Shown here: positions 5,751-44,328 of the stretch, one piece after another
How the letters are laid out: the number at the start of each line of letters is the position of its first letter
Position numbering within the stretch: the stretch's first letter is position 1
Source: Trypanosoma brucei
Lineage: Eukaryota
Assembly (NCBI GenBank): GCA_000002445.1
Contig: CP000067.1
Span: 1,248,001 to 1,312,000, forward strand
DNA length: 64,000 bases
Reading direction: 5' to 3'
Notes under the pieces: generated by a model
Seen by the model: the letters and a program-made list of their open reading frames with translations, nothing else
What the model was told of the DNA's origin: nothing
The model's database searches: none
Position numbers and translations under genes: made by a program

Positions 5751-5770
5751 CACACAAACAAACAAACAAA

Positions 5771-5805: not shown

Positions 5806-5808
<3 letters not shown>

Positions 5809-19592: not shown

Positions 19593-20968
19593 TTTATATA
19601 AAAATGTTTAAATGCAATATTCCAAATGACAAAGAAAGATATTACAACGAACTCACCGAGGTATTGTTTTACTTTCCCTCCACACCCCTACTGAAGGAAA
19701 AGAAAAAGAAATCTTCCCTTCTCTTTTCACCGCTTGTTTACGATGGATTTACAATAATTTTTCGTTTTTTCTTTCTCTTTCTTTATCGTTGATTATGTCG
19801 TTTGGTCCCCTTATATACAGATCTGTAGATATATGAGACAGCGTGTGTTTGCTTCTCCCACTTGGGTTTTGCTTGTTTTCCTTTTTTTTTCCTTTACTTT
19901 CCAATTTATACCCCCTTTTCAATTTTTTAGTCTAATTTCCCCCCCCTCCCCGGTATCCCCTTACGCACACTTCGTGCGATTGCGAAATGCAGGTCCGACC
20001 AAACGAAAAAGATATCCCTTCAATATCCTCACAACTGTAAACCAAACTTCACCTTAAGCCCGGCCAACAGATACCAAAATCAGTCCGTTTGTTTCCTTGC
20101 CTTTTCCCCTTGATTTTTCCCCCTTAACAATTTCTCCGATTATTTCAATTTTTTTTGTCTCGTTCACCCACTGCGACCTGGAAATGAAAGGTTACAGTGC
20201 AGGTGGAAGCAATGATAACAAGATTTGTGAGGATAAACACAAGATGTCGTTGCAATGTGCGTTTTTTAAAATTATTTCTGCCGTTGTTTTTAATTATTGA
20301 TCTCCCCTATTTTTTAATTTGTAATACTTTTGTTTAAAAGGTAAAAACAAAACAAATATCCCAGTTCTTGACAGCACAACAATTTTAATCCCGAAAACCT
20401 TACGTTCCCACGGGAGTCCTTCCCTTCCTACTGCTCACTTATTTTGCTCTGTTTCCCTTTTCCTTTTCTTTTTTTCCCCCCTCTCCCTCACTATTGGATT
20501 TACCTCCCTCTCTGTGTCCTCTCTATTTTCCTCCTTTTTCAAATATTTTCCCTACTTTTCAGCACTTTCTTTACGACCTGTGGTATGTACAAATACAGGG
20601 ATGTATTTATGTATATGTATATAAATATACTAATTAAGAATGCCTGCTATTCTTCCTCTTTTTTTCGGTTTTTACACCACTCCAACAATATTTAGCTTCA
20701 GTAGTAACAGCGACAATGTGATCAACACCTACGTATAAATGTGTCCCCGTTTGCGTACTTGCGTGTTTGTTTGAGTGCGTTTAATGACAAGAAAGCGGTT
20801 ATGGGGGAAGTAAAACGAAGGAGCGAGTGAAGTGCACAACCGAATAAAACACAAAAAAAGAACAACTAAAAAAGGTATTAACGGTTGTCGTCGTTTGTTG
20901 TTGTCGTTTTTTTTGGTATAAACTTGACAGAGCGGTTGTATTGACCAAATATGGTATAAAATAGAGGG

Positions 20969-20994
20969 ATATATATATATATATATATATATAT
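20969..20994. repeat. (AT)n microsatellite
   Basis: Direct reading. Confidence 0.9.
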
Positions 20995-22751
20995 GTTGCA
21001 AGGAACTCAGTGACGGTGTGCCCGTGGATGCACGTGTCAGTATTGCTCTCCCTTTGTTTTCTGAAGGGGGATAACTCCTCTTCGCTTACTCTCTCTCTTT
21101 CTCGCTTTTTTTTATATATTTGTTTACTTATTTTTTTCAGGTTTTTTTTTCGTATTTACTTCACTCTCTTTTTTTTTCCTTTTATTGTATATCAAACAGC
21201 ACAGTCTGGGGTAATATAATATATAAGGTGATTTCCACGGAATATAGACAAGAAGTATAATACAAGAAAAAGCGAAAGTGAGACAAAGGCAGGTGAAAGG
21301 GAACGAAAGAAGAAAAAAATGAGCCCCAATAAAAGGTGCCTAAAAAGTAAGAGGGGAAGAAGGCAAGTGAGCCAGTTATTAAATTCTGTTTAAGGAAAGG
21401 ATAAGCTAGAAAGAAAAAAGAAACAACAAAACAGCGGATGAATTAATCAGGTACCAGCAGTAAAAGACAGGAGTGCGAGGCCTAGGCTGCCGACCCGGTC
21501 ACAGGATTGCCTGTTAAACTGTACTCGTTATTACTGAATGACGGGGAAAGATTACGAGCAACAAAAAAAAACACAATAAAAGAAGGTTAAACAAACTTGG
21601 GCTTCAGCTCGAGTGTCTTCGTTTCCTCCCACAAGTGGGTTTACGTTCCCTTTTTGTTTTCTTCTTTCTCTTTCTGAACTTGTTATTCTGCGAAGAAGGG
21701 GAGGAAGAAGAAAAGAAAAGAAAAGAAAAATTAAAATGAAAGCTGAACCTTCACGTATATAAGGGAACATGTATTCACATGGCAGTCGGGGAATGCCCGA
21801 AAAAGGAAAAAAAAATGCAACGGAAGAAATTCCACAAGCAAACGCAAAAACGATGAAGGCGGGAGACTCACGTTCCCCAACATATATATGTTCATTTATT
21901 TATATGTTTTACTTAGCAGCCAGCATACCGGCACATATACACATGTGGGCTCACTTCCACCGTCATTCCCTCACCTCCTTCCTTCACTGATGTTGCCACT
22001 ACACGAGACAAGTTGAGTACACATCCGTATGCCTCTGCTACTCACACGAAATGCAATGCAAATACAAATACAGCGTAGAAAAGGGAACCCATCCGTAATC
22101 ACAAACTCCCGGCGAATCGGCCAATGAGACGAACATAAAAGACATAAGAAAAGCATCGCTTCACCGTGGCGTCCCGCTGTCCCCATTATTTTTCCCCACC
22201 CATCCACTATGGTACATATAGGCTAAACTTTTTTTTTTGTTGCACCTTCATTCTCTAGTTGAGACAACCCCACACATTCCCAAAACTTTCCACCCGTCAC
22301 GACGCAACGCGACTCAACAACGTTCATTAAAGCGCAACCGATCCGCATACGTATTGCCGCACTGGAGTAACAGTAATAACCCTAATGACAATAGGGACAA
22401 CAAAAGTAGGAGGGAGAACGTCATAGTTTGAGGAGTTGTGTTCAAAGAAGTGGTGAGCAAGCGCCTAAAAAAATATGTATGTATATATATATGGAGACAG
22501 GTATATTTTTTGCTGGCTACACATTCAGATTGAAGGATAAACTAGTCCTTCCACGCAATTTAAAAGAAGTTATCAAACAACACGCCACAGCGGGCAACAA
22601 AGGTGGCCAACAAAGCAAAATAAAATGAAGGAAGGAGTAAAACATGCACGTTGGTGCCTGTATTGACCACTGGGTGAGCATACCGCACTTAAGAAATGAG
22701 AAGAGGCGGAAACAACACAGAAGCTATGAAGTGACCGCATTCAACAAAGAA

Positions 22752-22775
22752 ACACACACACACACACACACACAC
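22752..22775. repeat. (CA)n microsatellite
   Basis: Direct reading. Confidence 0.9.
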
Positions 22776-24177
22776 GCAGTTGCCCATGAAAGTGGATCCG
22801 TGCTTTGGACATAAATTACATAGGCATATATACGAAGAGAGCGAGGGAGAAAAGGTATTGAGAAGATAGAAATCAAAACTTACAGAGGAGGTAAAAAGAT
22901 ATTTTTATGTTCATTGTGGCGCTTTGTTGAACAGGATGGTAAACCCAAATACTTACGCTCACGAGCTAGGGTACATATTAACGCTTGTCTATGCTGGTGC
23001 TATCGGTGTCTGACTTCACAGTGAAAACAGCAAGGGGTAGCAACGACCACACAAATCAAGAAGGAAGAAAAAAGTCATCTGTTTTTGCACATGGATACCC
23101 CGCTACAACTGCAACCATTCGCTTTGTTGTGTTTGCCAGAAAATATCGTGAGGGGGAAAGCGACAGAACCGTATGCTCGTAAGAAGGAGTTGTAAGAAAG
23201 TTTCCTTTTTTTTTTTCTGGTCACCTTGAGCACTGAACGACACCTTCCCTATACTCCCTACACCTTGAAACACCCAAAGCGCTTACTCCAACTTTCGCAT
23301 GTTCAATGCATCGAAAGAAGATTTAGATGTGAATGCAGCCCCACCTGTATTCGTAGACATCTCATTTTTGTTCGGCACGTGCCAATTTGCATAATCGTAT
23401 CGGGGATGACAAAACAGCACTTTGTTCTCTAGGGCTCAGCGTGTTATGGATGACAAGTTCCCAACAACACAATGCCACGGGTTAAGGGCTTCTGCCCCCT
23501 CCCTCCCCCCCCCGCCCAACTTGGGGATGGTATGCGTGCGTTGGGGAGGAGTTAGCGGTGAGAATGATAGTCACGAGAAGGATGAGCGGTAACGCAAACA
23601 AGAAGAGGCGGGGAGCAAGTGGCAACCATAGAGTTGGATGATAGGATCTTCACCACCAACTAACTGTTCCCCACCCAACCGCCGCTAGTTTGTCTGACGC
23701 GTACGCCTTCAATACACTCACCCCTTTTCACCCCAAACTCCACTGCTATTCAAAAGGGGGTGAGTATCGCAAGGACACGCAGGAGTGGCACCAACCCAAA
23801 TTCGCTCAACGCATTGTACCTTCTCCCAGCCCCTCGCTGCCGCCGTAATCCTGAACTTTGGGAACATAATTTTCTCAGTAACAGTCGGAGAACGGGACGG
23901 CGAGCAAAACTGTTCGCTGCACTCACCCACACTGTGACGTTTTCTACGCACGGACAAGCAGCTTTTCTTTTCGTCGAATTGAAAACTTGCAGAAGTACCG
24001 GGGCAGCAACGCTGACTATGACGACGACCAATTCGATCATGGCGTACTCACCGCCGGAAGGCTCTGCGGTGAAGCTGAGGAGAAACACCTGGCCTGCACC
24101 CCTGACGTGGATGCGGCTGACCCAGCGACAGCCCTCATACACCAGCGACTTGCGCAACGGGTACACAGCCAAAATCT

Positions 24178-30006: not shown

Positions 30007-30504
30007 TTAAAAGAACTTGTACCATGCTGAGGCAGGCTCCTCCTTCCAGCTCTTGTTTTTAGTTAAACACACCATCAAGTTTTTGCGTTCCGAATTGCAA
30101 GATGCAATCCGTCCAGCGAGTTTCATTTCCATGGGACACTCTAAACTGCACCGCACCAGCTGTTCATTAAGGGGGTAGCAAGGGTGCTTCGGTGATAGAT
30201 CCAACTTGGCGGGGGGTGCAATCTGTTGGTTATACTCCCGTGTTCCCTGGTCCTTCCACCCTGTCACGATCTCGATATTGTGACTGCTGTCATGTTGGTA
30301 AATCATGTTACGGATCACATGGCCACCGCTCCGGCGGTTCGGATCTACCGGTACTTCAGGATCAGCGCTCATAAGTGCAGTCCCCACAGCCTCCGTCAAT
30401 TTGGATGAATACGCACTGGATATTTTAAGCCGATAAAATGCTTTCTTCGCTAACTCAGCTACCTTTACTACAATTGAGCTCGCCGCTGCATGCCCTAAGT
30501 TCAT
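30007..30504 (-). CDS. Twin Cx9C (CHCH-domain) protein, probably mitochondrial intermembrane-space
   Basis: CYPLNEQLVRC (Cx9C), a 16-aa linker, then CNSERKNLMVC (Cx9C), read directly from the ORF translation. Size of 165 aa is typical for CHCH proteins. Confidence 0.55.
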   Translation of the reverse strand: MNLGHAAASSIVVKVAELAKKAFYRLKISSAYSSKLTEAVGTALMSADPEVPVDPNRRSGGHVIRNMIYQHDSSHNIEIVTGWKDQGTREYNQQIAPPAKLDLSPKHPCYPLNEQLVRCSLECPMEMKLAGRIASCNSERKNLMVCLTKNKSWKEEPASAWYKFF

Positions 30505-32230: not shown

Positions 32231-32362
32231 TGGTGCCTCTTCCTACATACAGGGAGGGGGAACAGTGAAGTATCAATCATTCGGCCAGACCAACGTATTA
32301 AATAGCTAGAGCAGGAGGAAACAATTCACAGTGTATTGCCACAAACCGTAATAACATACTCT

Positions 32363-32908
32363 TTAATTGTCCCAATACGTCCGACTTGACAGAAACGGGG
32401 CTAACGCGTATATCAGTCCGTGTGTGTAGGATTCGGCACGATTGAGGTGACCGGCTGTGAGAACTCCCATTGCTCCTTGTCCAGATCTCACGTCCTTCTC
32501 ACCAGTCATTTCGTCCATTATTTCTGCAAGCTCCTTTCCCTCATTGAGGATCTTCTGCATGAGCTTCTGACTCATTTCAAACCTTCCAGATGACCCTGTC
32601 CCCTCGCGTCCACTCGAACGCTCAATGACATGCATCCACCCACATTCAAACCATCTGTCACCGATCTTTTCCAGGCCACCTTCCATTCCTACCCCATAAT
32701 GGGCATCAGGTATGTGCCGTAGCGCCTCTCGGGCGCGGTGTTGAGCCCCTTCTTGTGACTCTCCCGCTGACATGGGTTGAGCTCGGACAGCTGAACTCAC
32801 CTCAACAGGTCTGATGTCGTGTTGTTGATCAGGAAAACACTTGTTAACAACCAAGGCAACAGAGTTCAATTTTGCTTTGTTCGTTGTCCCTACTGCCCAA
32901 ATGATCAT
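32363..32908 (-). CDS. Inosine/xanthosine triphosphatase-like NTPase (YjjX/DUF84 family). The start is placed at the internal Met (MIIWAVGTTNKAK); the ORF-track ATG at 32968 adds 20 unlikely residues.
   Basis: MIIWAVGTTNKAKLNSV at the N-terminus and C-terminal GAMGVLTAGHLNRAESYTHGLIYALAPF match the E. coli YjjX pattern (..VCATTNPAK..., [28 protein letters not shown]). Confidence 0.75.
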   Translation of the reverse strand: MIIWAVGTTNKAKLNSVALVVNKCFPDQQHDIRPVEVSSAVRAQPMSAGESQEGAQHRAREALRHIPDAHYGVGMEGGLEKIGDRWFECGWMHVIERSSGREGTGSSGRFEMSQKLMQKILNEGKELAEIMDEMTGEKDVRSGQGAMGVLTAGHLNRAESYTHGLIYALAPFLSSRTYWDN

Positions 32909-33293
32909 TGTGTTACTAACAGCCACAATAACACTAAGAAACGAGTGCTTGATGCTTGCCGAAACCAAGAAGTAGCACCAGCCACAAGGTTAGAAAAGAT
33001 GTGAGCACAAACGAGAATCGGCCGGTATGTCCGGTTGCACAGGATACAAAAAAGAAAAACAGCAAGACACCTCCATGCGCAAGATGCTGCGACAACATAA
33101 CACCCAAAGACGTACGCCTAGATTGGCAAGTGCACAACCAGCAGCGCATTACGTATCGGTTCTCTCTGATCATACGCATATATGTATGTAGAGTTCAGAA
33201 AGAGAGGAAATGATTACCTACTTGGACTTCCTGTGAGCCAAACACCTAAATAAAGATGGTGGACATCCCGCAGAAACTGAAAATGAGGGTTCC

Positions 33294-33309
33294 AAAAAAA
33301 AAAAAAAAA
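33294..33309 (-). promoter_or_regulatory. T16 polypyrimidine tract on the sense (minus) strand. Candidate trans-splicing signal for the first gene (32363..32908) downstream of the ORF-free region.
   Basis: A16 on the plus strand equals T16 on the coding strand, ~390 nt upstream of the ATG at 32908. Confidence 0.45.
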
Positions 33310-36300
33310 TCAGCCGCCTTGAACGATCATGGACACTGTGCACGGTTGTCAGGCAGCTACGCATGGGTGCATGCGCCCGAATGATTATGCATTACATAAC
33401 ATTTCGGGTGACGTAGCCTCTGGTGCTGAAAAAGTTCCTGTCAAGGTGGTGAGCTTCACAAAGGAAAAGCAATAACACCACCTTACGTTTTGCTTTGCAT
33501 AAGCAAAGTGATCGATGCCCTCTCACCTACGAAATGATCAGCGGTATTAGAATGTATTTTCTATTGTACACAAGGAGATGCGTGCATGTACTCGCAACAG
33601 GTGGTACTGAAGAGCTCTCTCGAACACTGTGCGGGCAGGGGCGTTGGCCCTTTCGGAGCATTACTAAGCAAAAATAAAAATTTCATGTTAACGCTTGCAT
33701 GGAAAAATTGTTGCTTCTCGTCACCTGCTAAAAAGTCACTGACAACCACCTAGAGTTCATGCGCTGGAACTGGCACGTAGTGCCACTTGAAAGCGACATA
33801 ACACCATGGCTAACTAACGACACAACGGATCCTCAGCACCTGCAGAACCTCATTTTTGTCGTCCAATAGCATAAGGCCTAATTCTCGATCATGGCAACTG
33901 TCTATTCATTGAATCAGTAGCGAGAACGTTATGTTGGAGTCGCTTTTGGCGCCATATGCTTGGCGCTCGGAGACGTCATTCCGTACACATAGCGCCAGCA
34001 CTTCAGTATACTAAGAACTTCGGCATCTAAATTCCCCAGCCACCTTACGCGGTACCAACAAGGGAAGCAAGTGATATTATTGATCACCTCATCGTGCAGT
34101 ACTTGCATAAGGGAGAAAACACAGCTGTACCGACGCCTTGCGGAGTTTGTCCAGATAGTATCTGCCTTAGCGTACTTTGCTTTTTCGCCCCCCCCCCCAT
34201 GCGTAAATGTTACTACCGACTGACTGCCAGTAATACTGAGATGTCTAAACGCCAAATACCTTGGCCGCATAACCGGTGATCTCTACTTGCCGATCACCCG
34301 TTAGCAGCGTACAGACATAACCAAATCCTGACACTAGTAATGAGCCGCTCCGCGGGTTGCCAACAGCGCTTGTTTCATGTGTAGTGCCGCAAATTAATGT
34401 GCATATCACACTGTCAGGATTTTGCTGAAACAGGATTTTATGATGCATCACAGCTCTTCTTTCTTTTTAAAAAAAAAACTCAAAAGCCGATGTTTCCTAC
34501 ACATTGCAAGCACGCAAGTTCGCTATGGTTACACCCCATTTCTCTTATTCACACGAAGCGCTGTTAGACACCTAATACGCTGCAACGAGGGTGCCTCAAC
34601 TATTAGCTGAACTCAGAAGGGAGAACACATTCACCGTAGGTTCGTTATGCGGTATAAGAGCCTATGTGATCATAAAAAAAATGAAACGAAGGACAACTGG
34701 CTAGCATGTAAGTTAGGTGCAATAAATAAATAAGTTACTGAATTAGAGACGGTAATGGTGACCATCATTTTATGTGTGGAAAACCAACACGTCGTTGACA
34801 CAGAAGAAACAAAACGTCTAGAATCCTGTATTCCATCTTTACCAAGTAAAGTAATTAAAAAAAGAGACACCAGCTCTCCTCTTTTTTTGTGAGAGATGCG
34901 TTCAAAGGATACGTACCCCTAAATGGGGTTAAGTTAGTAAGGGAATATGTAGTAGTTACAAAGCCATCGAAGACGGTGCACAACAGTTGCTTTCGGTCAA
35001 CAAGGCACTCATATAAAGAAAACACATGTTTCATCGTGCTCTGGAGTTTGCAGCCACAACAGAATCAGTTTGGGAACAGAATACCAATAACTTGGTTGAC
35101 ACACACGCAAAAAATCATTTTGTGGCACAAAACTTAAAAATAAATCAGAGACCCGTTCATAAATACACCCGTGTGCACACACAAGCACATGAGTTCGAAG
35201 TTATTGGGGGAACATGTTGCATTTGGTGGGTGCTGAAATGAGTTGTGGTTCGCCAACAAACCACAGCTTTTACCTCGTCCTGAAATATCTTCAGTCAGCT
35301 AACATTGCACAGCCGTTTTTTTACACGTGATCGTCTTGGGGGGAGGGAGTGCAAAGCACCAAATCTCACCATAATGAGAGGTGGAATAGGAACGCGAGCA
35401 ACAGATCACTCGTAGGAAACACTACGACAGCAATAACGGATCACTCCAGCGCAAAAAAGCGCAGCTGACAGTAAGCAGCACGTACACTCCGGTGACCCCT
35501 CCCCCCCCCCCCCAAGGATGTCCCAGTCTCACTCCACTCTTTTTGGCAGAAGAAACCCGCACCATCCCAACTGCTTCAAAAAAAAGTTCCCTGCGAAATC
35601 CATTTGCGTCACTGTCAGAACCTTAAAATGTGTCTTCTGTTGACATCTCCAACTGCGTGTCCGAGCGTGTAGCTACTTAACAGACTAATCAGGGTACACG
35701 AACCCGCTGCACAGGAAGAAGAGTATACTTTCTCCTATACTCACCTTTGCAACCGGTACATCACTAGCATTTGCTACCTCTATAATTACTCCACATGAAA
35801 CAAAAATAAATATGCACCTAAGATAATCAAAAACTATTCCTTTGGTACCGCCCCCTCCAGGAACTCGTTCGACACCTGCGGCAACCAAATAAAATACTTT
35901 TCGCCTCCCGCAACTCCAGTTACCTTAACGCGACACCAGGCTAGAGAATCTTGCTGAGACAGTGGAAGCCGTAGGACTGTATACCAGTGCGCTAAGACAG
36001 GATAGTAGTGAAAAGTTCACGCCATCAAGGCACCCTGGAACCAGCAGCTGAATCACTCCCGGACAGATGTCACCGCAAGAAACCTCCAGTACCTGCGGCC
36101 GCACTTTCAACAATATCAGCGTACTCCGACATGTTCCAATGCACCACTCCTACTATTGCCATCTCGAAAGAAGTTTTAAGAGACCCAAGAATCGAGCATC
36201 AAAATCACAGCATAACTCAAGTCAACCAGTAGAGAATCTGGTTTCTGCCCCGGGGCCATGACTGCCGATAGGCTGCCAAAGGTTCAATCACCGCCGTGTC

Positions 36301-37556
36301 GTCGCCATCTCCTTCATTGACTGTTCCGAGAAATTGGCCACGACTGTACACGGCAGCTTTTTGCAGGAAATACGTAAACTTGGCATACAAAGCCCATTCG
36401 TCCACTGCATGGCAACGCTCCTGGCTGAACGTGCCCAGCGGCCTCGCTTACAAAGATCAGTCTCCCGACGAGGACACTTCATCTGAGACTAAGCACCAGG
36501 CGCATCAGTCGACCCTTTATTCTTAACAATTGTATTGAACCCCTTCCCCCCTGTGAAGCATGACACAACGCAGGCTCCAACCCCATCATGGTTTCTTCGT
36601 AGGCGACCAAATGATGAGGAACTAAGATGCTGGAGGCTCTGCTGAGGGAAGCAGACACTACGAATATGTCAGGGGCCAGCTGATACTTCGGCCCCCTTGC
36701 CGCACGAAAAGCATGGTCTAAAGTGTTAAGATGACATTTTATGGGTACCGTGGCACTGACACTCGATGATGCCAACATCGAAGCGAGCCCTTCCTCCATT
36801 AGTAAAAATACTGGTGATCTGCAGCCAGTACCGCCTTCTCACAAACACGGATCGAGCGGTGGAGAATAATAACTGACATGGACACACTCTCCATTACGCC
36901 GAGAATATATCAGAGAAAATATGTACATATACGGATGCACAAGCGCAGCATACGGGTATATGATATCACGTGATGATGCAGAACTTTCAAAGGATCAACA
37001 GCGTACACCACACACTATAGAGAGAGATAGTCATGCCCTTCTGATCTTTTCTTTTTTCACCCAATCTATCATTCCACATCATTTCTCCCATTAGAACACG
37101 ATGGTATGGAGTAATAATGTGAGGTGAAGCACAAACATATGATGTGAGAAGGAGAGGTGTGACTGTAGTGTTCCATCCGAAGGAAGAGTTAACAAATAAC
37201 ATATACAGTAGCGACACTTCCCATACTGTGCACATAACACAGCATGGTATATTAGTATGCACAGGGGAAAACTATGTCGATATATAACGCACCTTTAGCC
37301 ACCGTACGGGGTGCAGTATCGTGATTGGGCCGTTCCTGAAAGCTAAAAATCCTATGGCGAACTGGAGCGCTCCGTGCAGGCAAAGTAGCTCCCTAAAAGT
37401 CCTCCGCGCACTGACCAGGTCGGTACGGACAAATTCCGTTGCAGAGGAGCGGAGAACCCCCCAGGAAATGTGGAACCTAGACTTCAAGACCAAGCGTCAC
37501 GACACCTCTATTCCGCCAGAGCCTGTGTTCGGTCGCCTCCGACCAAAGAATGGATC

Positions 37557-38066
37557 CTAAGACGACGGTGGAAACAACGCAACCCTACGAAGCGAGAGGC
37601 GTAAGAACCACTGACTAGCAAAACGACAATGCAGCGCAACTCCGATGAAGTGAAGCATGCTCCGGTCGGGAACCACCGGAAACTCGCAAACGACGATCTG
37701 GTTAGTCGAAAGGGGTCCAGTGTGCGCGCAGGACTCCGCACAACCGCACCCACCTCCCTTGGATAGCCCGGCGCAGTTCCACTGCATCCCGCGCAACGAC
37801 GGGCCGGGATTCTCTTCCACATCACCGGACAGCAGCATCTTAGTGCGTATGATACTGCTGATGGCACGCTGGCACGTGCCCAGGGACCGACAAATGAAAA
37901 GCGGTGTCCCAGCAAGACACTGCTGATCCCTGTGCCGTATGATGCCGTAGCCGGAGCAAAGCAGTGTTCCCCATGAAAGGAACGCTGTTGGCTCTTGGCT
38001 TCCCCCGATGATACGGGGTACTGGACCCTGGCACCACGTTGAGGTGGCCGGCATCGCCAGGGTCCC
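37557..38066 (-). mobile_element. 5' portion of a degenerate ingi/RIME-like (DIRE-type) non-LTR retrotransposon encoding a 2A-like self-cleaving peptide. Frameshifted and degenerate downstream; full extent uncertain (possibly to ~37.0 kb or further).
   Basis: The ORF encodes ...AISSIIRTKMLLSGDVEENPGP (nt 37800..37859), then SLRGMQWNCAGL, an AP-endonuclease-like start. The 2A motif D(V/I)ExNPGP is a hallmark of trypanosome L1Tc/ingi elements. From memory the T. brucei ingi/TSR1 2A is SSIIRTKMLVSGDVEENPGP. Three overlapping frames (37508..37915, 37557..38054, 37840..38124) suggest frameshift decay. The sense strand starts near 38062 with CCCTGGCGATGCCGGCCACCTCAACGTGGTGCCAGGGTCC. Confidence 0.7.
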
Positions 38067-39116
38067 TACACGTGAAAAACAGCTGCCAAGGTGGCCTGAC
38101 CGCTGGAAACCAATCTAGCACCAATTGTTGCCCTGAGATAAAAGAGGAGAAGCACTGAGAGCTTGGGAAACGGCCGGAGTGTCGTTGCTAACGTCTTCTC
38201 CCCTCTGCGGTCTCAGAAGTCACTTCACACAGGCCGCGTCTTTTGCAGAAGCGCCGCATCTCCGGGGCGCCACTTTTTGAGCTTCACTGCTGACACGTTA
38301 CGGTTGTTTTTACTACGAACAAAGATGAGGAGAGATTCAGCTACTCAGGAAGCTTCTAGACGCACCAAAGTTTCGGGTTTTGAGCCCACCAGCATAGGCA
38401 AACGTGCCCAAGCTAATGTGGTTGAAATGTCTCTTTACTAAATAGTGTCCATCCGTTCCTGAAGAGTGTGTGCAGACAACGTGCGGTGGAAGGCGAGTCT
38501 CCTAATGAGACCGTGTTGGGGAAAAGGTCAGGAAAGTTCTTCCATACAATTAGTGGAGTCCATGCCGCAGCGGTCACCTTTTTTACAAAAGAAGGATGCG
38601 CTCACTTAAAAGAAAGATACCACTCAAAGGGTTTCAGCGTATGAGAATGGACAAAGTGGTCTATTATAGCTTTTTTTTGTTGAAAGCCTGCATTACGAAT
38701 GGTTTTGGGCTTAGGAATGCAGAGTATTTTTTTGTACGGTTATCTTTGTATAAACACACTGTCCTCCCGTTTATGTACACAGCTGTTTGCAAGAGGGTGA
38801 AAATTTTAGAAAGCTCACCCAACCAAACCCAACCCTCTACGCCCCGCACGGGAGGTGAGTAAACTGCGCTTTCAGACACTTCCATATCGTTAGTAAATTA
38901 TCGTTTCAATTCATATTTGTGTAGGATGATGAGGAACGCTTACTGTTTCTTCAGCATGATAATTATTTCGTATATCTTTCTTGTCCGTAGTAAAAAGGGA
39001 AGGTAAGAACTAAACTATTCTTGGTGGAATGAGGGGGGAATTTAGTTGACATCTTCCCCCGCCACACCGTTACTTTTGCCATCCGAAGGTTCTTAAAACC
39101 TTGTCTCAGCACTCGT

Positions 39117-39136
39117 CAGCCACGACGTCGTGGCTG
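39117..39136. repeat. Perfect 20-bp palindrome cagccacgacgtcgtggctg
   Basis: Read directly. The two halves are exact reverse complements (centre gacgtc). It lies 165 bp downstream of the tRNA-like gene. Confidence 0.9.
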
Positions 39137-39280
39137 CCGCCATGATACGGTTACTTTCGGTGGTTTCATCCACATCGATGTATTTCGTGCACTTTGTAGT
39201 GCAGTCGCACTTTTTCCCCCCTTTAAATTAGGCGAAAACAAAACGCAGCGGTGCTTGTTGACAGTATTTTTTCAAGCCTG

Positions 39281-39284
39281 TCAG
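39281..39284 (-). terminator. Candidate Pol III terminator (T4 on the minus strand) for the tRNA-like gene
   Basis: Plus-strand aaaa gives TTTT on the minus strand, ~18 nt past the 3' end of the tRNA-like gene. Confidence 0.35.
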
Positions 39285-39301
39285 CCAGAAGAAAAGAAAG
39301 A

Positions 39302-39374
39302 CGCGCAGTCCGGGAATCGAACCCGGGGCTCCCGCTAATTGAGTGCGAGTGACTTTCCACTAGACTAACCGCGC
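39302..39374 (-). tRNA. Aberrant tRNA or tRNA-like gene (73 nt). Apparent anticodon CAA but a short variable arm, so incompatible with tRNA-Leu. The D-stem cannot pair. Possibly a pseudogene or tRNA-like RNA.
   Basis: Reverse complement is GCGCGGT-TA-GTCTAGTGGAAAGTCA-C-TCGCA-CTCAATT-AGCGG-GAGCC-CCGGG-TTCGATT-CCCGG-ACTGCGC-G. The acceptor stem has 7 bp (one G.U). The T-arm CCGGG/TTCGATT/CCCGG is canonical and identical to the tRNA-Glu-type T-arm I recall. The D-stem has 3 of 4 mismatches and the anticodon stem has A31.A39. Confidence 0.65.
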
Positions 39375-39428
39375 CACCTGAGCGTTTGGTGTTCAAAATT
39401 TATTGCAACGTGCAGCGTCCGAAGAACG

Positions 39429-39433
39429 GGAAA
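39429..39433 (-). terminator. Candidate Pol III terminator (T5 on the minus strand) for tRNA-Val
   Basis: Plus-strand aaaaa gives TTTTT on the minus strand, starting 3 nt past the tRNA 3' end. Confidence 0.4.
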
Positions 39434-39435
39434 TA

Positions 39436-39508
39436 TAAAAAGGCTACGACGGGCGGGGATCGAACCCGCGATCTCTCGCGTGTGAGGCGAATGTCCTAAC
39501 CACTAGAC
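39436..39508 (-). tRNA. tRNA-Val (anticodon CAC)
   Basis: Reverse complement is GCGATGG-TC-GTCT-AGTGGTTA-GGAC-A-TTCGC-CTCACAC-GCGAG-AGATC-GCGGG-TTCGATC-CCCGC-CCGTCGT-A. All four arms pair (acceptor with two G.U). Anticodon loop CTCACAC has U33 and anticodon CAC. The D-loop AGTGGTTA and T-loop TTCGATC are canonical. Confidence 0.9.
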
Positions 39509-41621
39509 GACCATCGCACGGTAAGCATTCCTCAGGGGTAGCTCATAGAAATGATTGTTGAACCGACCGGATCAAGGAACTTGCGGGTGTTGCGGACGAA
39601 TGGCTGTTAAGAGGCAAACCTGTTGGTTTGGAGGACTTTGGGGCGCACCCGGGTGGAGATGTTTCAGATGCGGAAGGGTTGGAAGAGTTGGAAGGGAGAT
39701 GCGAATCCACCACCTTACGCGAAGTGGGAGGCACGAAAAGGAAGCACGGCAACTGTAGCAAAAGCAACGTGAATGCCAGTGGTGTGTTTGCGTTGTTTCC
39801 GCGGCGCTGGAAAGAGTGCAAAGACCGGGAAAATAGAGTTGCGGTTCATATAAAACCGTATGCGTGCAATGCCCGGTGGTGAAGCAGGATTTAAGCAAAA
39901 AAAAAAAGAGATAAATACGCGGGGGGGGGGAAGTTTACGAGTTCAACATGTGAAAGGTGTTTCGTAGCAGGGGCTTTGATAATGCACATCAACCTCGTGA
40001 GTATGCACGGCCCCGTGGCACCGCTAAAGGGACTACGAGCAGTGGAGGGAAAGTGGGGTTAGCCATAGCCGCGCCGGTGTTGAGACCAAAATAAAAAAAG
40101 GGATGACGTGGAGGTAACAGTTAAGGAAGGAGAGGATAGAGAGAACAGGGTGGGGTTGGAATAAAATGTTCCTAGTAAACTTTTGATGTTCACGGGGCAC
40201 GTGGGACTCCAGAGAGTAAGGAGAGGTGCGCACTTAAGGCACACACAAGAAAAATGCATACTGAATCCGATTGCGCGCTCCGAGGGGTTTCCTGACGCTT
40301 TTATAAGGAAGTGGAAAGTGTGAAGTGAAACCCACCATTGCCCCATACTGCGGCTAAACGTAAGCGAGGCGAGTTGGTCTAAAAGGTTTAGTAGGAAGGA
40401 TACACGGCGATGGAAAGAAGGACGTTTACAACAAATTGAAGTTGGGCATCCAAGGATTGCTGAGCCACTTGCCCGAATGCACTGCCCTGAAGAATCTGAA
40501 GATGAAACATGAACTAATAGGCTTGATGGGGAAAGCGCCTCGCGGGGAGGCAAAATTGGCGGGGTTCCTTTCCGTTTGACTCGGAAAGGGAGGGTACCGG
40601 TGCTCAATGGTTGGGAAATGGCTCCGATCAGTGATGCGGAAGGAAGAGAACAAACAAATCAAGAATAGGGGCGCCCGAAACAAATCCACCACCGGAGACG
40701 TCGGATTGAGGAGTGTGTGTGTGTGTGGGGGGGGAAGGGGAGCAGCGGTGGAAGGACGATCTCTGCAAAGCACGGCGTAGACACAAATTGATTGTAGTTC
40801 ACTAATTCCCTCGTGGTCTGCTTTCGCCCATTCTCCATAGTGATGCATGAGTTCCCGCTGCGACTGTCAATGACGGGCTGCCCATCAACGGGCTGTTTCC
40901 ATTCAAAGAGGCAGGCAGCGCTGCGTGCGATTTCCATTCCCACGTGTTAGAAAAATCCACCGACAGTACAGGGTGACTTTTAGCTTGACTCAGCTCCGCA
41001 ACGCAAAGAGGAAAGGCAGCTTTTTTTTTTTTTTAAAAAAAAGAGATCTTGGGGCTGATCACGCACAAACGCCGATGTAAGAAACGTTGGCTTTTGTCTC
41101 ATTGTTGACTCGTCTTTCATGACACATTGGCCTGGGTCCCAGGCGCGAGGGAAGGAACCGCAACAGTTTAGCGGGGCTCAGTGTGGGTGATGTGGGTGCA
41201 AGCCGACTGAGCTCAGTTAATCGTCCCAATGATAATGCGGTGCAACTTTTTTGCCATAGTGTGTGTGCGTGTGTGTGTGTGCCCGAAAACCCTCCGCTAA
41301 CAACTCAGCTTTAGCGGTGGTTACATACATCGACGCAATTCATGCACCCCCGTTTGTCTCGGGCGTGTGGGTAACCATCGCTTCACCTATGTGGTGTAGA
41401 GAGCTGTGAAATTCAAGGAGAAAAAAACAGCATGTAAAAAGCAAAAACTCTGCTTACGTGTGTTGCTTGTGCTTCATCGGAAGGGGACACTCCGCGTAAG
41501 TTACAATAATTAGGTTAAACGCCCCTCGTACGGCACTCCAACTGCATTAGGTTCCATTTCCCCCTCCCCCCCCCCACACACACCCACTCTCCCCTCTGTG
41601 CGATCCGGGCCAGAAAATTCC

Positions 41622-43160
41622 TCAGCTGAAGGCAGCGGACTTTAGGGTCTGCACTTCAGTTTCTGCTGTCTTTATAATCGTCGGCGCTACCTTTCGGCGG
41701 GCCATCTCCATGCAGAGGGGCCGATGTGACTTGTAATCTTCTCGTTGACATGCCACACCACAATAAGATACGGTGCGGCAAGCGGCGCACTTCAGCACTT
41801 CTTTTACATTTCCCGGGCAACACGGATTGTGGCATTTCGGGGTAACCCCATTTTCATTTGGCGGCGTCTTACTGTGCACCGCAAGGTGATATTGAGGCTC
41901 GCTCAGGAAGGCGAATGTGGTGATGATGTACTCCTTAAGTGTGTGCAGATGCTGTGTCACACTACCTTTCCCGAGGCGTGTGTATATGTTGTCGGCGGTG
42001 GTGAGTGCGCGGTCCAGCACCGGAAGTTGTTCGCTTGCGCAGGCCATATTTTTCACTTCCCGTCGCACCACATGCAATGCGAGGGCGACGCTTGCAACAT
42101 GGGATGGAAGATCAGTATGCAGGTTTATTGACCCCGTCATGATCGCCTTCACGTGGCGGAATGCGTCGAACAGTGCTACTCTCGCTGCAAAAAGGGACCC
42201 ATTTTGAACCCTACGCACCGGCTTGTCGAGGAAAGGATTGCGGTAATCCAGTCGCTGGAGCAAATCCTCCACCAACTTACATGCAAACGCATCATCCTCC
42301 TTTACTGCCATCATAAGCAAACAGTCAATGACTTTCATTTTCTCAATGTCCTTTATAAACAACGTGTACGTGCTACGGAACTTCACGTAACATGGACAAC
42401 GGTCACAACAGACATATGTCCCAGTTCCATTCGCATTGGCACCCTGGAACATGCTATACACACCAACGCACGGGCTAAAGCAAAAGAACAGCGCCCTTAG
42501 CGAATCCATCAACGCACCAAAGATCTCCAAGTTGTCGAGCGAGGTCCTCAAACCATTTATTAAGCTGAGGGTGGTTTTCATAGCCTCTTCTGCATTGGAG
42601 GTGCTAAATTTGGTTGGAGTATTTCTGGGTTCCCCAATATCCAGTATGAATTCCTTAATGTTTCCGAGGGCTTCTACCTTCGAATTCACGTCCCATTGCG
42701 GGTACTTGGAAACAAGCCGGATAGCCTCAAAAACACGACGGGCGATGTCACAGAATGAATCCATACCCTTGGGAAACCGCGGCCATTCTTCCTCATCCTT
42801 CGCCGCCGTCGCGTTGTAGAACTCATAGCAAGCCTCTCCCAAAAAAGGGTCCTTATGGAGTACGGCGAATGCCATGAAGTCATTAAGCAGGCGAAGTGCC
42901 GCAGGGAAGCGGTCCTCTGGTTGAAAACAGGCTCCAATGTAATCCACCAACCATCCGAGGTCGATGGATTGAAAGGGATATCGGAGTACGGTTGCATTGT
43001 TCATTGTGCTTTCCACCGCTTGTGCATTTGCCAAACGGGTCTCATTACTGGGCGTGGATGGGGAAGTTGTCATGGTCGGTTTGACTAACAGGCGCGCATT
43101 ATTTTCAAGAACGAGCGCAAGGGGAGAAAAGCAACGGGAGATGGATGAGGGACTCGTCAT
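41622..43160 (-). CDS. MYND-type zinc-finger protein (C-terminal zf-MYND). The N-terminal start may be an internal Met.
   Basis: C-terminus CHNPCCPGNVKEVLKCAACRTVSYCGVACQREDYKSHRPLC matches the C-x2-C...C-x2-C...YC-x3-CQ...H-x3-C MYND pattern. Confidence 0.7.
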   Translation of the reverse strand: MTSPSSISRCFSPLALVLENNARLLVKPTMTTSPSTPSNETRLANAQAVESTMNNATVLRYPFQSIDLGWLVDYIGACFQPEDRFPAALRLLNDFMAFAVLHKDPFLGEACYEFYNATAAKDEEEWPRFPKGMDSFCDIARRVFEAIRLVSKYPQWDVNSKVEALGNIKEFILDIGEPRNTPTKFSTSNAEEAMKTTLSLINGLRTSLDNLEIFGALMDSLRALFFCFSPCVGVYSMFQGANANGTGTYVCCDRCPCYVKFRSTYTLFIKDIEKMKVIDCLLMMAVKEDDAFACKLVEDLLQRLDYRNPFLDKPVRRVQNGSLFAARVALFDAFRHVKAIMTGSINLHTDLPSHVASVALALHVVRREVKNMACASEQLPVLDRALTTADNIYTRLGKGSVTQHLHTLKEYIITTFAFLSEPQYHLAVHSKTPPNENGVTPKCHNPCCPGNVKEVLKCAACRTVSYCGVACQREDYKSHRPLCMEMARRKVAPTIIKTAETEVQTLKSAAFS

Positions 43161-43352: not shown

Positions 43353-43889
43353 CTAGAAGGCGCTACGGTACCATTGTCGTTCCTCCTCCATTCCACGAAT
43401 TAACGCGTCCAGAAGGTCCCGCTCACTTTCACAGAGCTTCTCTCGCACATCACTCAAGTCAAACCCCTTCTTCGCAGCTGCACGGATGATTTTAAGATAT
43501 CGCAACTGATAGAGTCTAAAGAGTTGCCCCGCTAGTCGGTTGCCATCGCCCGTGGGGAGCATTGCACACAGCAGAAGCCCTGCTTCATAATAGTAAGGTG
43601 ATTTAGCATGAAGACTCACAGCAAGTGGGTCAGTTTTAAATTCGCGAAATACCGATGTGGTGTAACGTGACGGAACCTGGGGCACTATATGACCTACTTG
43701 GCGAAAAGCCACTGCTGCCCACAGGGGAAGAGTTGCGGTACTTCCGACTTGCACCTCGTCATGAGTCTCGCCCTCAGCGGTACGGGGGTTAACGTCTTTG
43801 CCAAGCCCAAACAAGGGTGTGGTGAAGGTGACTGGGATTAACTCCTCATTGGATAAAATGCTAGAGAGATCAAAATAATTCTTGATCAT
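43353..43889 (-). CDS. PSF3: GINS complex subunit Psf3. Start placed at the internal Met (MIKNYFDLSSIL); the ORF-track N-terminal 41 aa are probably spurious.
   Basis: YFDLSSILSNEELIPVTF...GLG resembles Psf3 YYDIDDVLADGTEFPCKF..PGLG. ATLPLWAAVAF resembles LSLPLWLARIL. FKTDPLAVSLHAKSPYYY resembles IKTDPVALDLHSINSHFF. C-terminal ERDLLDAL..EEERQWY resembles EEMEKEIY..KDTKRW (comparison with yeast Psf3 from memory). Confidence 0.8.
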   Translation of the reverse strand: MIKNYFDLSSILSNEELIPVTFTTPLFGLGKDVNPRTAEGETHDEVQVGSTATLPLWAAVAFRQVGHIVPQVPSRYTTSVFREFKTDPLAVSLHAKSPYYYEAGLLLCAMLPTGDGNRLAGQLFRLYQLRYLKIIRAAAKKGFDLSDVREKLCESERDLLDALIRGMEEERQWYRSAF

Positions 43890-44328
43890 TCTACCGTTTT
43901 CTATTTGATAAGTGAAGACAAAATAATGGGTCCCATGGAAGGGGAAATGACACAGTGTATATCCGCACACAATTATCTTTGGTACTAAATGAAAGGTCAT
44001 GCGGCTTCCCATTCGGAAGGATTAAAAAGTGAGTGAATCATCTGATACATGCAGTCTCCCTGTGCGCTTCTACAAGCAAGAGGGCAGGAAAATAAGATAA
44101 AATAAAATACCACCGTAATGATGATGAGGCTTGGTATTAGAGGTATAAGATCCTTTCTCCATATAGAGCAATGAAAAAAAAAAGATCTAATCTTCCTGCC
44201 TTCGTGCCAGCACCAAAAAACACCAAGAACACTTAACAACACCAACGACAAAAAAAAAAAGTACATACAGGTGATTTACATTTACGTATACAAGCCGAAC
44301 CCGTTAGGGGAATTTTGTTTCCTCTTTC

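What the first reader, a model, noticed from the sequence alone, without database searches (positions are those of the whole stretch)
33294..41621. Same-strand tRNA pair plus ~6 kb ORF-free region with a retroelement remnant interrupts a unidirectional polycistronic cluster: candidate Pol II termination and re-initiation site
Every credible CDS from 2.2 kb to 63.6 kb is on the minus strand. Between the MYND-finger gene (ends 41622) and the NTPase gene (starts 32908) there is about 8.7 kb with no credible ORF. This stretch holds two minus-strand tRNA genes (39302..39508), a degenerate ingi/RIME-like 5' end (37557..38066), long homopolymer tracts and many stop-rich small ORFs. In T. brucei, tRNA genes inside directional gene clusters are known to coincide with Pol II termination (H3.V/H4.V/base J) followed by re-initiation (H2A.Z/H2B.V). 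The T16 tract at 33294..33309 would then serve the first trans-splice site of the downstream unit.
Basis: partly seen in the sequence, partly recalled or inferred. Interest (0 to 1): 0.6.

Follow-up and report, generated by a model that had tools for sequence, protein, structure and literature searches.

The report
Known transcription-unit boundary at Pol III genes
This stretch of Trypanosoma brucei chromosome 4 is an already catalogued site where RNA polymerase II stops at two small polymerase III genes (tRNA-Val and the tRNA-like SRP RNA sRNA-76) and restarts just downstream, so it is a correct reading of an ordinary, known feature.

Summary
The window is T. brucei TREU927 chromosome 4, bases 1,248,001-1,312,000. 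Twelve of 12 published splice-acceptor coordinates fall right after an AG with this offset. In detail: all genes are on the minus strand, and 8.7 kb without a credible ORF separates the MYND gene (Tb927.4.4670) from the NTPase gene (Tb927.4.4660).

Kolev 2010 lists a transcription unit starting at Tb927.4.4660 "next to tRNA". The Lister 427 annotation places single termination region sTTR_52 on these two genes.

Corrections:
- The second "tRNA" (39302-39374) is sRNA-76, the tRNA-like RNA of the trypanosome signal recognition particle.
- The ingi remnant is only about 305 nt (38065-37757). Its Pr77 promoter hallmark is intact.
- The ORF-free stretch is transcribed into three low-abundance polyadenylated RNAs (Tb4.NT.51, .50, .49). 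The first spliced-leader site is at 38312.
- The T16 tract lies inside Tb4.NT.49 and does not serve the NTPase splice site (32954). A nearer pyrimidine tract does.

New side observations: tRNA-Val follows the MYND gene in T. vivax and T. theileri too. The thiolase gene that precedes the NTPase gene in other trypanosomatids is missing here.

The parts
41622..43073 (-). Tb927.4.4670, a MYND-finger protein of 483 aa. It is the last gene of the upstream transcription unit (Tb927.4.5080 -> 4670).
   Evidence: Pfam zf-MYND. The SAS at window 43084 with an 11-nt 5'UTR puts the ATG at 43073. Unit limits come from Kolev Table S14.
39518..41621 (-). MYND 3' flank and inferred Pol II termination zone. 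The sense strand is C-rich and GT-poor, with (CA)n runs, A14/T8, C10 and a G10 run.
   Evidence: Composition (sense-strand GT 0.487 over 38001-41600). 97.4-98.0% identity among T. brucei subspecies, against 99.2-99.9% for CDS. The termination role is inferred from sTTR_52. No poly(A) site was found for this gene in the tables held.
39445..39517 (-). tRNA-Val(CAC), Tb927.4.4666, the single Val-CAC gene of T. brucei. A Pol III T5 terminator lies at 39441-39437.
   Evidence: ARAGORN and Rfam, 60.9 bits. Coordinates 1287445-1287517 from PMC3091756 Additional file 1. Single copy per PMC2695483 Table 1. 100% identical in T. b. gambiense, T. b. equiperdum, T. vivax and T. theileri.
39302..39374 (-). 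sRNA-76, Tb927.4.4663, the tRNA-like RNA subunit of the trypanosomatid signal recognition particle. It has been mis-annotated as tRNA-Sec (GeneDB) and as tRNA-Ser-CGA (Tb427v9), and ARAGORN calls it Leu-CAA. A T4 run lies at 39295-39292.
   Evidence: Rfam tRNA model at 40.3 bits, with a 9-nt loop where the anticodon loop should be. 'Incorrect annotation-really sRNA-76' at Tb927_04_v4:1287302-1287374(-). Also PMC2695483, locus chr04-V. 100% conserved among T. brucei subspecies while the 70-nt spacer is 87-90% identical.
38313..39301 (-). About 1 kb between sRNA-76 and the first mapped spliced-leader acceptor. This is the inferred zone of Pol II re-initiation.
   Evidence: No processed transcript is listed here. 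No Rfam match at E<=1. Initiation here is an inference from the first SAS at 38312 and Table S14.
35817..38312 (-). Tb4.NT.51, a novel polyA+ trans-spliced transcript of 2495 nt at 0.28 RNA per cell. Its splice sites are dispersed (dispersion 348 nt).
   Evidence: Kolev 2010 Tables S7 and S12. An AG precedes 38312.
37757..38065 (-). The 5'-terminal ~305 nt of an ingi retrotransposon, in the same orientation as the downstream unit. The rest of the element is absent.
   Evidence: blastn gives 95-97% identity to the 5' ends of two ingi copies (L004, L005), and nothing else in 32900-41700 matches ingi. Protein hits are named Tbingi/BES15S03c and cover only the first 61% of the 165-aa ORF. No RT or endonuclease domain in any minus frame.
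37986..38062 (-). Pr77 hallmark (the internal Pol II promoter / HDV-like ribozyme region of L1Tc/ingi elements), intact here. CCACC is at +16-20 (38047-38043) and the DPE motif CGTG at +25-28 (38038-38035).
   Evidence: The alignment with ingi copies shows the element boundary exactly at +1. Motif positions are as defined in Macias et al. 2016, PMC4748587. Promoter activity at this locus was not tested.
37800..37823 (-). 2A self-cleaving peptide motif DVEENPGP of the ingi ORF, followed by the first residues of the endonuclease domain just before the truncation point.
   Evidence: Translation of ORF 37557-38054. The match to an Exo_endo_phos-containing ingi protein covers only 16% of the query.
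34772..35788 (-). Tb4.NT.50, a novel polyA+ transcript of 1016 nt at 0.28 RNA per cell.
   Evidence: Kolev Table S7. An AG precedes 35788.
33073..34661 (-). Tb4.NT.49, a novel polyA+ trans-spliced transcript of 1588 nt at 1.77 RNA per cell. It contains the T16 tract (33309-33294) and the 113-aa ORF 33929-34270.
   Evidence: Kolev Tables S7 and S12. An AG precedes 34661.
33041..33067 (-). Pyrimidine-rich tract that serves the NTPase trans-splice site. The poly(A) site of Tb4.NT.49 (33073) lies 6 nt upstream of it.
   Evidence: The first AG downstream of this tract is 32956-32955, which is the mapped SAS at 32954. The first AG after T16 would be at 33278-33277, and no SAS is listed there. SAS dispersion is 2.4 nt.
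32363..32908 (-). Tb927.4.4660, an inosine/xanthosine triphosphatase (DUF84). It is the first protein-coding gene of the downstream unit (Tb927.4.4660 -> 3760).
   Evidence: Pfam NTPase_I-T at 8.8e-52. Exact match to AAZ11056.1/XP_844615.1. SAS at 32954 with a 46-nt 5'UTR. Unit start from Table S14.

Best explanation
This is a head-to-tail boundary between two RNA polymerase II polycistronic transcription units on T. brucei chromosome 4.

Pol II transcribing the unit Tb927.4.5080 -> Tb927.4.4670 terminates in the 2.1 kb after the MYND gene, at or before two active Pol III genes on the same strand. These are tRNA-Val(CAC) and the tRNA-like SRP RNA sRNA-76. Their Pol III/TBP complexes, the nucleosome-depleted region over them and the termination chromatin (H3.V, H4.V, base J) act as a roadblock.

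Pol II then re-initiates in dispersed fashion within about 1 kb downstream, in a 5-6 kb start region whose sense strand is GT-rich. The first products are three low-abundance, non-conserved, polyadenylated RNAs (Tb4.NT.51, .50, .49), carved out by the normal trans-splicing/polyadenylation machinery. The first protein-coding mRNA of the new unit is the NTPase gene.

Shown here:
- gene order and strand;
- the identity of the two Pol III genes;
- the mapped splice and poly(A) sites;
- the published unit and termination annotations;
- neutral divergence of the gap.

Inferred: the exact points of termination and initiation, and the roadblock mechanism, which rests on general knowledge of such sites.
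For: - Coordinate mapping is secure. The offset of 1,248,000 reproduces three start codons from the published SAS plus 5'UTR. It reproduces the exact ARAGORN/Rfam coordinates of both RNA genes. It puts 12 of 12 published splice acceptors directly after an AG.
- Kolev 2010 Table S14 lists a unit ending at Tb927.4.4670 and a new minus-strand unit starting at Tb927.4.4660 'next to tRNA'. The paper says such starts were defined by 5'-triphosphate RNA enrichment at sites marked by variant and modified histones.
- Staneva 2021 Table S8 shows both genes overlapping sTTR_52 and all eight RNAPIII/TTR factors in Lister 427.
- The general mechanism is described: tRNA genes as strong Pol II stops, and about 40% of termination regions being head-to-tail and often at Pol III genes.
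- The first SL site after the Pol III genes is 990 nt downstream, at 38312.
- Sense-strand GT content switches from 0.487 (38001-41600) to 0.555 (33001-38000). That is the highest of 119 five-kb windows, in line with GT-rich start regions.
- tRNA-Val and sRNA-76 are 100% conserved among subspecies. The surrounding gap diverges 3-8 times faster than CDS.
- tRNA-Val(CAC) lies directly after the MYND gene in T. vivax and T. theileri as well, so the junction is old.
Against: - I could not view ChIP-seq, base J, or nascent-RNA tracks for this locus. Support comes from published summary tables, not raw data.
- Spliced transcripts downstream of the Pol III genes do not by themselves exclude partial read-through.
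- The GT bias is modest, and there is no dense GT block in the start region.
- Staneva 2021 notes that not all tRNA genes coincide with a termination region, so Pol III genes are not sufficient in general.
Confidence: 0.87

Rival explanations
1. The truncated ingi 5' end acts as the promoter. Its intact Pr77 hallmark lies in sense orientation at the head of the unit. It would have been co-opted as a focused Pol II promoter, and possibly as an HDV-like ribozyme that frees the 5' end, driving much of the re-initiation.
For: - Pr77 is intact, with CCACC, TCAA and the essential DPE CGTG at the published positions.
- It is oriented with the downstream unit and sits 1.24 kb after sRNA-76, at the upstream edge of the GT-rich zone.
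- Only the promoter-bearing 305 nt of the element survive. That is unusual for non-LTR elements, which are normally 5'-truncated.
- The literature proposes that Pr77 elements at unit boundaries influence polycistronic initiation.
Against: - The major spliced-leader site of Tb4.NT.51 (38312) is 250 nt upstream of Pr77 +1 (38062). Pol II must therefore already be transcribing before the element.
- Pr77 shows 2 differences in 77 nt among subspecies, the same rate as neutral flanks.
- Pr77 promoter activity was shown for T. cruzi L1Tc. The authors say other Pr77 copies still need testing.
- T. theileri and T. vivax have the tRNA-Val junction, with no evidence here of such an element.
Confidence: 0.08
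2. There is no boundary. Pol II reads through a long intergenic region, and the tRNA and sRNA-76 genes are incidental passengers inside one continuous unit.
For: - All genes are on one strand.
- Spliced, polyadenylated RNAs are found throughout 38312-33073.
- Some T. brucei tRNA genes do not coincide with termination regions.
Against: - Two independent published annotations put a termination region on, and a unit start next to, these genes.
- No processed transcript is listed for the 3.3 kb between the MYND stop and 38312.
- A composition switch occurs at the Pol III genes.
Confidence: 0.04
3. The ORF-free stretch hides a real gene. Candidates are a protein-coding gene, a decayed retroelement (DIRE), a thiolase pseudogene, or a functional long non-coding RNA.
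For: - Three polyA+ transcripts exist.
- ORFs of 113 and 165 aa have been annotated as proteins in T. b. gambiense and T. b. equiperdum.
- Thiolase genes occupy this position in T. cruzi, T. grayi and L. mexicana.
Against: - No Pfam domain at E<=1 in any minus-strand frame of 33201-38100.
- tblastn with four thiolases finds only noise.
- No ingi similarity beyond 305 nt.
- The 165-aa ORF is an ingi N-terminus read through into unique sequence.
- The transcripts are absent from Kolev's lists of novel transcripts with homologues or peptides.
- Divergence among subspecies matches non-coding flanks, at 97.9-98.9%.
- Abundance is 0.28-1.77 RNA per cell.
- A regulatory lncRNA role cannot be excluded with these data.
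Confidence: 0.03

Closest known systems
[quoted passage not shown]
   Same: - Same-strand flanking units with Pol III genes in the gap.
- Published TTR (sTTR_52) and 'next to tRNA' unit start at exactly this locus.
- GT-biased sense strand downstream.
- Low-abundance start-proximal polyA+ RNAs.
   Different: Nothing essential; this locus is one of the catalogued cases. Its particulars are that one of the two Pol III genes is sRNA-76, that an ingi 5' fragment lies in the start region, and that the start region is unusually long before the first coding gene (6.4 kb).
sRNA-76 / sRNA-85, the tRNA-like second RNA of the trypanosomatid signal recognition particle (Beja 1993; Liu 2003)
   Same: Window 39302-39374(-) has the exact coordinates given for sRNA-76 in the literature. 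It has a tRNA-like cloverleaf, a Pol III T-run, and 73 nt plus CCA gives 76.
   Different: It is not a decoding tRNA, although ARAGORN, Rfam, GeneDB and the Tb427v9 annotation each give it a different tRNA identity (Leu-CAA, generic tRNA, Sec, Ser-CGA).
ingi/RIME non-LTR retrotransposons and their Pr77 hallmark
   Same: The first ~305 nt are 95-97% identical to ingi 5' ends. Pr77 has its DPE at +25-28, and the 2A peptide DVEENPGP is present.
   Different: There are no endonuclease, RT or RNase H regions, no RIME 3' half, and no poly(A) tail. It is a 3'-deleted stump, neither a RIME (5' plus 3' halves) nor a DIRE.
GT-rich dispersed Pol II promoters of T. brucei (Wedel 2017)
   Same: Broad sense-strand G+T excess over about 5 kb downstream of the boundary, with sense-strand G runs (G11, G13).
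   Different: The bias is modest (0.555 against a window mean of 0.521). There is no dense GT element like the synthetic promoters, and promoter activity was not tested.

Membership tests
Head-to-tail PTU boundary at Pol III genes (sTTR + non-divergent TSR) | Flanking protein-coding genes are on the same strand on both sides. | tested here: met
   All credible CDS from 2.2 to 63.6 kb are on the minus strand.
Head-to-tail PTU boundary at Pol III genes (sTTR + non-divergent TSR) | One or more Pol III-transcribed genes lie in the gap. | tested here: met
   tRNA-Val(CAC) and sRNA-76. RPC1 and TBP enrichment is reported for these genes.
Head-to-tail PTU boundary at Pol III genes (sTTR + non-divergent TSR) | Termination chromatin (H3.V, H4.V, base J), or a termination region annotated from it. 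| tested here: met
   Only through published annotation: sTTR_52 overlaps both genes. The ChIP tracks themselves cannot be viewed with these tools.
Head-to-tail PTU boundary at Pol III genes (sTTR + non-divergent TSR) | Initiation marks downstream (H2A.Z/H2B.V/H4K10ac, 5'-triphosphate RNA). | tested here: met
   Only through Kolev 2010 Table S14, 'Tb927.4.4660 -> 3760, next to tRNA', a table built on those marks. Raw tracks were not seen.
Head-to-tail PTU boundary at Pol III genes (sTTR + non-divergent TSR) | Sense-strand GT-rich start region. | tested here: met
   33001-38000 ranks 1 of 119 five-kb windows at 0.555. The effect is weak, with no dense GT block.
Decoding tRNA (for the gene at 39302-39374) | Seven-nucleotide anticodon loop with U33 and a purine at position 37, and an isoacceptor identity consistent with its length. 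| tested here: not met
   Rfam aligns a 9-nt loop. ARAGORN's Leu-CAA call lacks the long variable arm expected of tRNA-Leu, and the published identity is sRNA-76.
sRNA-76 (tRNA-like SRP RNA) | Identity with the published sRNA-76 locus. | tested here: met
   Tb927_04_v4:1287302-1287374(-) equals window 39302-39374(-). Association with 7SL RNA rests on the literature and was not tested here.
ingi / RIME retroelement | Pr77 hallmark at the 5' end, with the DPE CGTG at +25-28. | tested here: met
ingi / RIME retroelement | Endonuclease, RT and RNase H coding regions (ingi), or the 3'-terminal ~250 nt plus poly(A) (RIME). | tested here: not met
   No Pfam hit in the minus frames. No blastn match to the rest of a full ingi in 32900-41700.
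[quoted passage not shown] | Recognisable but degenerate RT/endonuclease remnants following Pr77. | tested here: not met

The most novel reading that the evidence does not exclude
The 305-nt ingi stump was retained because its intact Pr77 promoter/ribozyme module, oriented with the downstream unit, contributes to Pol II re-initiation or 5'-end formation after the Pol III roadblock. This junction, MYND gene | tRNA-Val, has been conserved since before the split of salivarian and stercorarian trypanosomes. In the T. brucei lineage it was remodelled by loss of the thiolase gene and the presence of sRNA-76 and the ingi fragment.
Probability: 0.08. Interest if true: 0.45.

Novelty: already known. 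Interest (0 to 1): 0.15.

Why it matters
It matters little as a discovery. The site is already listed as a unit boundary in at least two published genome-wide data sets, and the phenomenon has been textbook knowledge for trypanosomes since 1998-2009.

Its value is as a clean, fully mapped example, with a Pol III pair, a 1-kb gap, the first SL site, three start-proximal RNAs and then the first coding gene. It also corrects recurring mis-annotation of sRNA-76 as a tRNA: Sec, Ser-CGA or Leu-CAA, depending on the tool.

The conserved MYND | tRNA-Val junction and the sense-oriented Pr77 stump offer a tractable single locus. It could be used to test whether Pol III genes are necessary for termination and whether Pr77 remnants contribute to initiation.

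Tried and rejected
- **Decayed retroelement (DIRE).** Pfam on all three minus-strand frames of 33201-38100 at E<=1 found nothing. blastn against a full ingi matched only 305 nt. Rejected.
- **Thiolase pseudogene.** tblastn with T. cruzi, T. grayi and two L. mexicana thiolases against the whole window gave only chance hits (E>1) outside the gap. There were no hits in T. vivax or T. b. equiperdum loci either. Rejected.
- **Tandem duplication of the ingi fragment in T. b. gambiense**. The two copies flank a run of N, so it is an assembly-gap artefact. Rejected.
- **Dense GT-rich promoter block in the start region.** The only 30-mers with at least 93% G+T on the sense strand are (GT)n microsatellites elsewhere, plus one just after the MYND stop. 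Only the broad bias remains.
- **Other ncRNA genes in 32300-42000.** Rfam at E<=1 found only the two tRNA-model hits, and no HDV-ribozyme family hit on Pr77.
- **sRNA-76 next to tRNA-Val in T. vivax or T. theileri.** Not found with blastn-short, nhmmer, ARAGORN or Rfam.
- **Literature dead ends.**
  - Siegel 2009 is not held.
  - No chromosome 4 coordinates in the Wedel 2017 supplements or in the SPARC supplements for this locus.
  - No paper mentions Tb927.4.4660, 4663, 4666 or 4670 in its main text.
  - The Cordon-Obras 2022 promoter motif paper is not in the library.
- **Look-ups that returned nothing.** The exact NTPase product and the T. congolense MYND protein.
- **T. cruzi.** The MYND contig ends 1.7 kb after the gene with no tRNA, which is inconclusive.

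Full report
**Identity of the window.** Exact-sequence look-ups place the flanking proteins in Trypanosoma brucei chromosome 4. The NTPase is AAZ11056.1/XP_844615.1 of TREU927, and the diphthine synthase is AAZ11055.

Kolev et al. 2010 (PMC2936537) Table S12 gives splice-acceptor sites (SAS) and 5'UTR lengths for this stretch. For Tb927.4.4650.4660 and .4670, the published SAS position less the 5'UTR length gives start codons at 1,280,230, 1,280,908 and 1,291,073. These equal window 32230, 32908 and 43073. The window is therefore Tb927_04_v4:1,248,001-1,312,000.

Two independent checks confirm the offset:
- The published coordinates of the two small RNA genes (1287302-1287374 and 1287445-1287517, minus strand) equal the ARAGORN/Rfam coordinates to the base.
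- All 12 published SAS tested fall immediately after an AG dinucleotide.

**The observation.** All long ORFs with coding character are on the minus strand. The MYND-finger gene (Tb927.4.4670; true start 43073, 483 aa) ends at 41622, and the NTPase gene (Tb927.4.4660) starts at 32908. That leaves 8.7 kb without any ORF that matches Pfam, the largest gap in the window.

Two tRNA-model matches lie on the minus strand at 39445-39517 (60.9 bits, Val-CAC) and 39302-39374 (40.3 bits). The T16 tract and several runs of 10 or more are real.

**Correction 1: the second 'tRNA' is sRNA-76.** Rfam aligns a 9-nt loop where the anticodon loop should be. ARAGORN calls it Leu-CAA although it lacks a long variable arm. 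GeneDB called it tRNA-Sec, and the Tb427v9 annotation calls it Ser-CGA.

Two papers state that the chromosome 4 'tRNA-Sec' (Tb927.4.4663, 1287302-1287374, minus) is really sRNA-76. These are PMC2695483 and PMC3091756, with exact coordinates. sRNA-76 is the tRNA-like molecule that pairs with 7SL RNA in the trypanosomatid signal recognition particle. T. brucei has a single Val-CAC gene.

Both RNA genes are 100% identical in T. b. gambiense and T. b. equiperdum, while the 70-nt spacer between them is only 87-90% identical. That is the signature of two functional genes.

**Correction 2: the retroelement remnant is shorter and better defined.** The 165-aa ORF (37557-38054) hits proteins named Tbingi/BES15S03c, but only over its first 61%. 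At the DNA level, similarity to two ingi copies (95-97%) runs from 38065/38062 to about 37757. Nothing else in 32900-41700 matches a complete ingi. No reverse transcriptase or endonuclease domain is detectable in any minus-strand frame of 33201-38100.

The fragment starts exactly at ingi +1 (38062), where the flanks of different copies diverge. It contains:
- an intact Pr77 hallmark, with CCACC at +16-20, TCAA, and the essential DPE CGTG at +25-28, as defined for L1Tc/ingi elements;
- the 2A motif DVEENPGP (37823-37800);
- the first residues of the endonuclease domain.

It is thus a 3'-deleted 5' stump, oriented like the downstream genes. It is neither a RIME nor a DIRE.

**Correction 3: the ORF-free stretch is transcribed and processed.** Kolev Table S7 lists three minus-strand polyadenylated novel transcripts that tile it:

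| Transcript | Window coordinates | Length (nt) | RNA per cell |
|---|---|---|---|
| Tb4.NT.51 | 38312-35817 | 2495 | 0.28 |
| Tb4.NT.50 | 35788-34772 | 1016 | 0.28 |
| Tb4.NT.49 | 34661-33073 | 1588 | 1.77 |

SAS are recorded for NT.51 (dispersion 348 nt) and NT.49. All three 5' ends follow an AG. None appears in the lists of novel transcripts with homologues or peptides. The sequence diverges among subspecies like non-coding DNA, at 97.9-98.9% against 99.2-99.9% for neighbouring CDS. They look like the start-proximal by-products of coupled trans-splicing and polyadenylation that Kolev et al. describe at unit starts.

**The interpretation.** This is correct and already published for this exact locus.
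- Kolev Table S14 lists 'Tb927.4.5080 -> Tb927.4.4670, minus' and then 'Tb927.4.4660 -> Tb927.4.3760, minus, next to tRNA'. The paper explains that such starts were assigned from 5'-triphosphate RNA enrichment at sites carrying the variant and modified histones of Siegel et al. 2009.
- Staneva et al. 2021 Table S8 lists the same pair in Lister 427 (Chr4_core 1212837-1212909 and 1212978-1213053, with identical lengths and spacing). It overlaps single termination region sTTR_52 and all eight RNAPIII/TTR-associated factors.
- The general mechanism is set out. tRNA genes act as strong Pol II stops. About 40% of termination regions are head-to-tail and often sit at Pol I/III genes. Nucleosome-depleted Pol III genes act as boundaries.

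**Sequence features that fit.** The sense strand is GT-poor and C-rich from the MYND stop through the Pol III genes (0.487 over 38001-41600). It becomes GT-rich from 38000 to 33000 (0.555, rank 1 of 119 five-kb windows; ten consecutive 500-nt bins at or above the window mean). Three of the five sense-strand G runs of 9 or more in the window lie in the gap. This agrees with the GT-rich character of T. brucei start regions. The bias is modest, however, and no dense GT block is present.

**The T16 claim fails.** The first spliced-leader site of the downstream unit is at 38312, 990 nt after sRNA-76. It is not near 33300. T16 (33309-33294 on the sense strand) lies inside Tb4.NT.49, 221-236 nt upstream of that RNA's poly(A) site (33073).

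The NTPase SAS (32954, dispersion 2.4 nt) is the first AG after a nearer pyrimidine tract (33067-33041). The NT.49 poly(A) site sits 6 nt upstream of that tract, the normal coupled arrangement. The first AG after T16 would be at 33278-33277, and no SAS is recorded there.

**Comparative context.**
- In L. mexicana the order is GINS - MYND - 4.1 kb - thiolase - thiolase - NTPase - diphthine synthase, all on one strand, with no tRNA.
- T. cruzi and T. grayi have thiolase - NTPase - diphthine synthase. In T. cruzi, opposite-strand DGF-1 genes lie upstream of the thiolase.
- T. brucei has no detectable thiolase remnant, and none was found upstream of the T. vivax NTPase gene.
- A tRNA-Val(CAC) gene identical at 73 of 73 positions lies right after the MYND gene in T. 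vivax (opposite strand, 1.2 kb) and in T. theileri (same strand, 614 nt). In T. theileri it is followed by T-rich and G-rich tracts. sRNA-76 is not next to it in either species.

The MYND | tRNA-Val junction is therefore old within Trypanosoma. Among the loci examined, sRNA-76 and the ingi stump were seen at this junction only in the T. brucei group. The thiolase gene is undetectable here in T. brucei and also in the T. vivax locus.

**Rivals.** The most interesting is that the sense-oriented Pr77 stump serves as a focused promoter or ribozyme for the new unit. Against it, the major SAS of Tb4.NT.51 is 250 nt upstream of Pr77 +1, so Pol II is already engaged before the element. Pr77 also shows neutral-rate divergence. 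I give this about 0.08.

Continuous read-through (about 0.04) conflicts with both published annotations. A hidden gene (about 0.03) conflicts.

**Verdict.** The site is an already catalogued head-to-tail boundary at Pol III genes, so it is not novel. This check adds:
- exact genome coordinates;
- the identity of sRNA-76;
- the true extent and content of the ingi stump;
- the mapped transcript and splice-site anatomy, which refutes the T16 sub-claim;
- the comparative history of the junction.

Limits: I saw no chromatin or nascent-RNA tracks, only published tables derived from them. The exact termination and initiation points remain inferred.

Noticed in passing
window 32909-39301; L006 8286-9629, L007 251-1594, L009 6690-9777: T. 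cruzi, T. grayi and L. mexicana carry one or two thiolase genes directly upstream of the NTPase gene. T. brucei has no detectable remnant at this position, and none was found in the T. vivax locus. The non-coding 'start region' occupies the place of the missing gene(s).
   Followed up: partly
L010 12627-12699 (T. vivax), L011 12069-12141 (T. theileri): tRNA-Val(CAC), identical at 73 of 73 positions, lies immediately downstream of the MYND-finger gene in both species. It is on the opposite strand in T. vivax and on the same strand in T. theileri, where a T34 tract and G-rich sequence follow. sRNA-76 is not adjacent in either. The junction is conserved across the genus.
   Followed up: partly
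L002 3964-4167 (T. b. gambiense DAL972 chr4): An apparent 0.7-kb tandem duplication of the ingi fragment flanks a run of about 200 N. It is most likely an assembly-gap artefact with overlapping contig ends.
   Followed up: yes
window 43353-44012 and 30007-30504: The published splice sites of Tb927.4.4680 (GINS Psf3; SAS at window 43900) and Tb927.4.4630 (SAS at 30494) fall inside the longest ORFs, so the true start codons lie downstream of the first ATG. Likewise, the 512-aa MYND ORF starts upstream of its SAS (43084), and the real protein is 483 aa.
   Followed up: partly
window 19593-24177: This is the second-largest ORF-free gap (4.6 kb). It is explained by a 2,094-nt 5'UTR of the gene at 16341-19592 (SAS at window 21686) and the novel transcript Tb4.NT.48 (22381-21817). 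A (GT)n microsatellite lies at 22741-22779.
   Followed up: partly
window 39302-39374: The same gene has been given four different tRNA identities by different tools and annotations: Sec, Ser-CGA, Leu-CAA and generic tRNA. Rfam has no dedicated sRNA-76/sRNA-85 family, so automatic pipelines keep mis-naming it.
   Followed up: yes
window 41622-39518: No poly(A) site for Tb927.4.4670, the last gene of its unit, was found in the parts of Kolev's tables that are held. How this terminal mRNA gets its 3' end without a downstream trans-splice site within 3.3 kb is unclear.
   Followed up: no
window 1588-1674, 5744-5808, 41256-41290, 40715-40735: Long (GT)n or (CA)n microsatellites lie in several intergenic regions. 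On the sense strand they are mostly GT-type, except in the MYND 3' flank, where they are CA-type.
   Followed up: no
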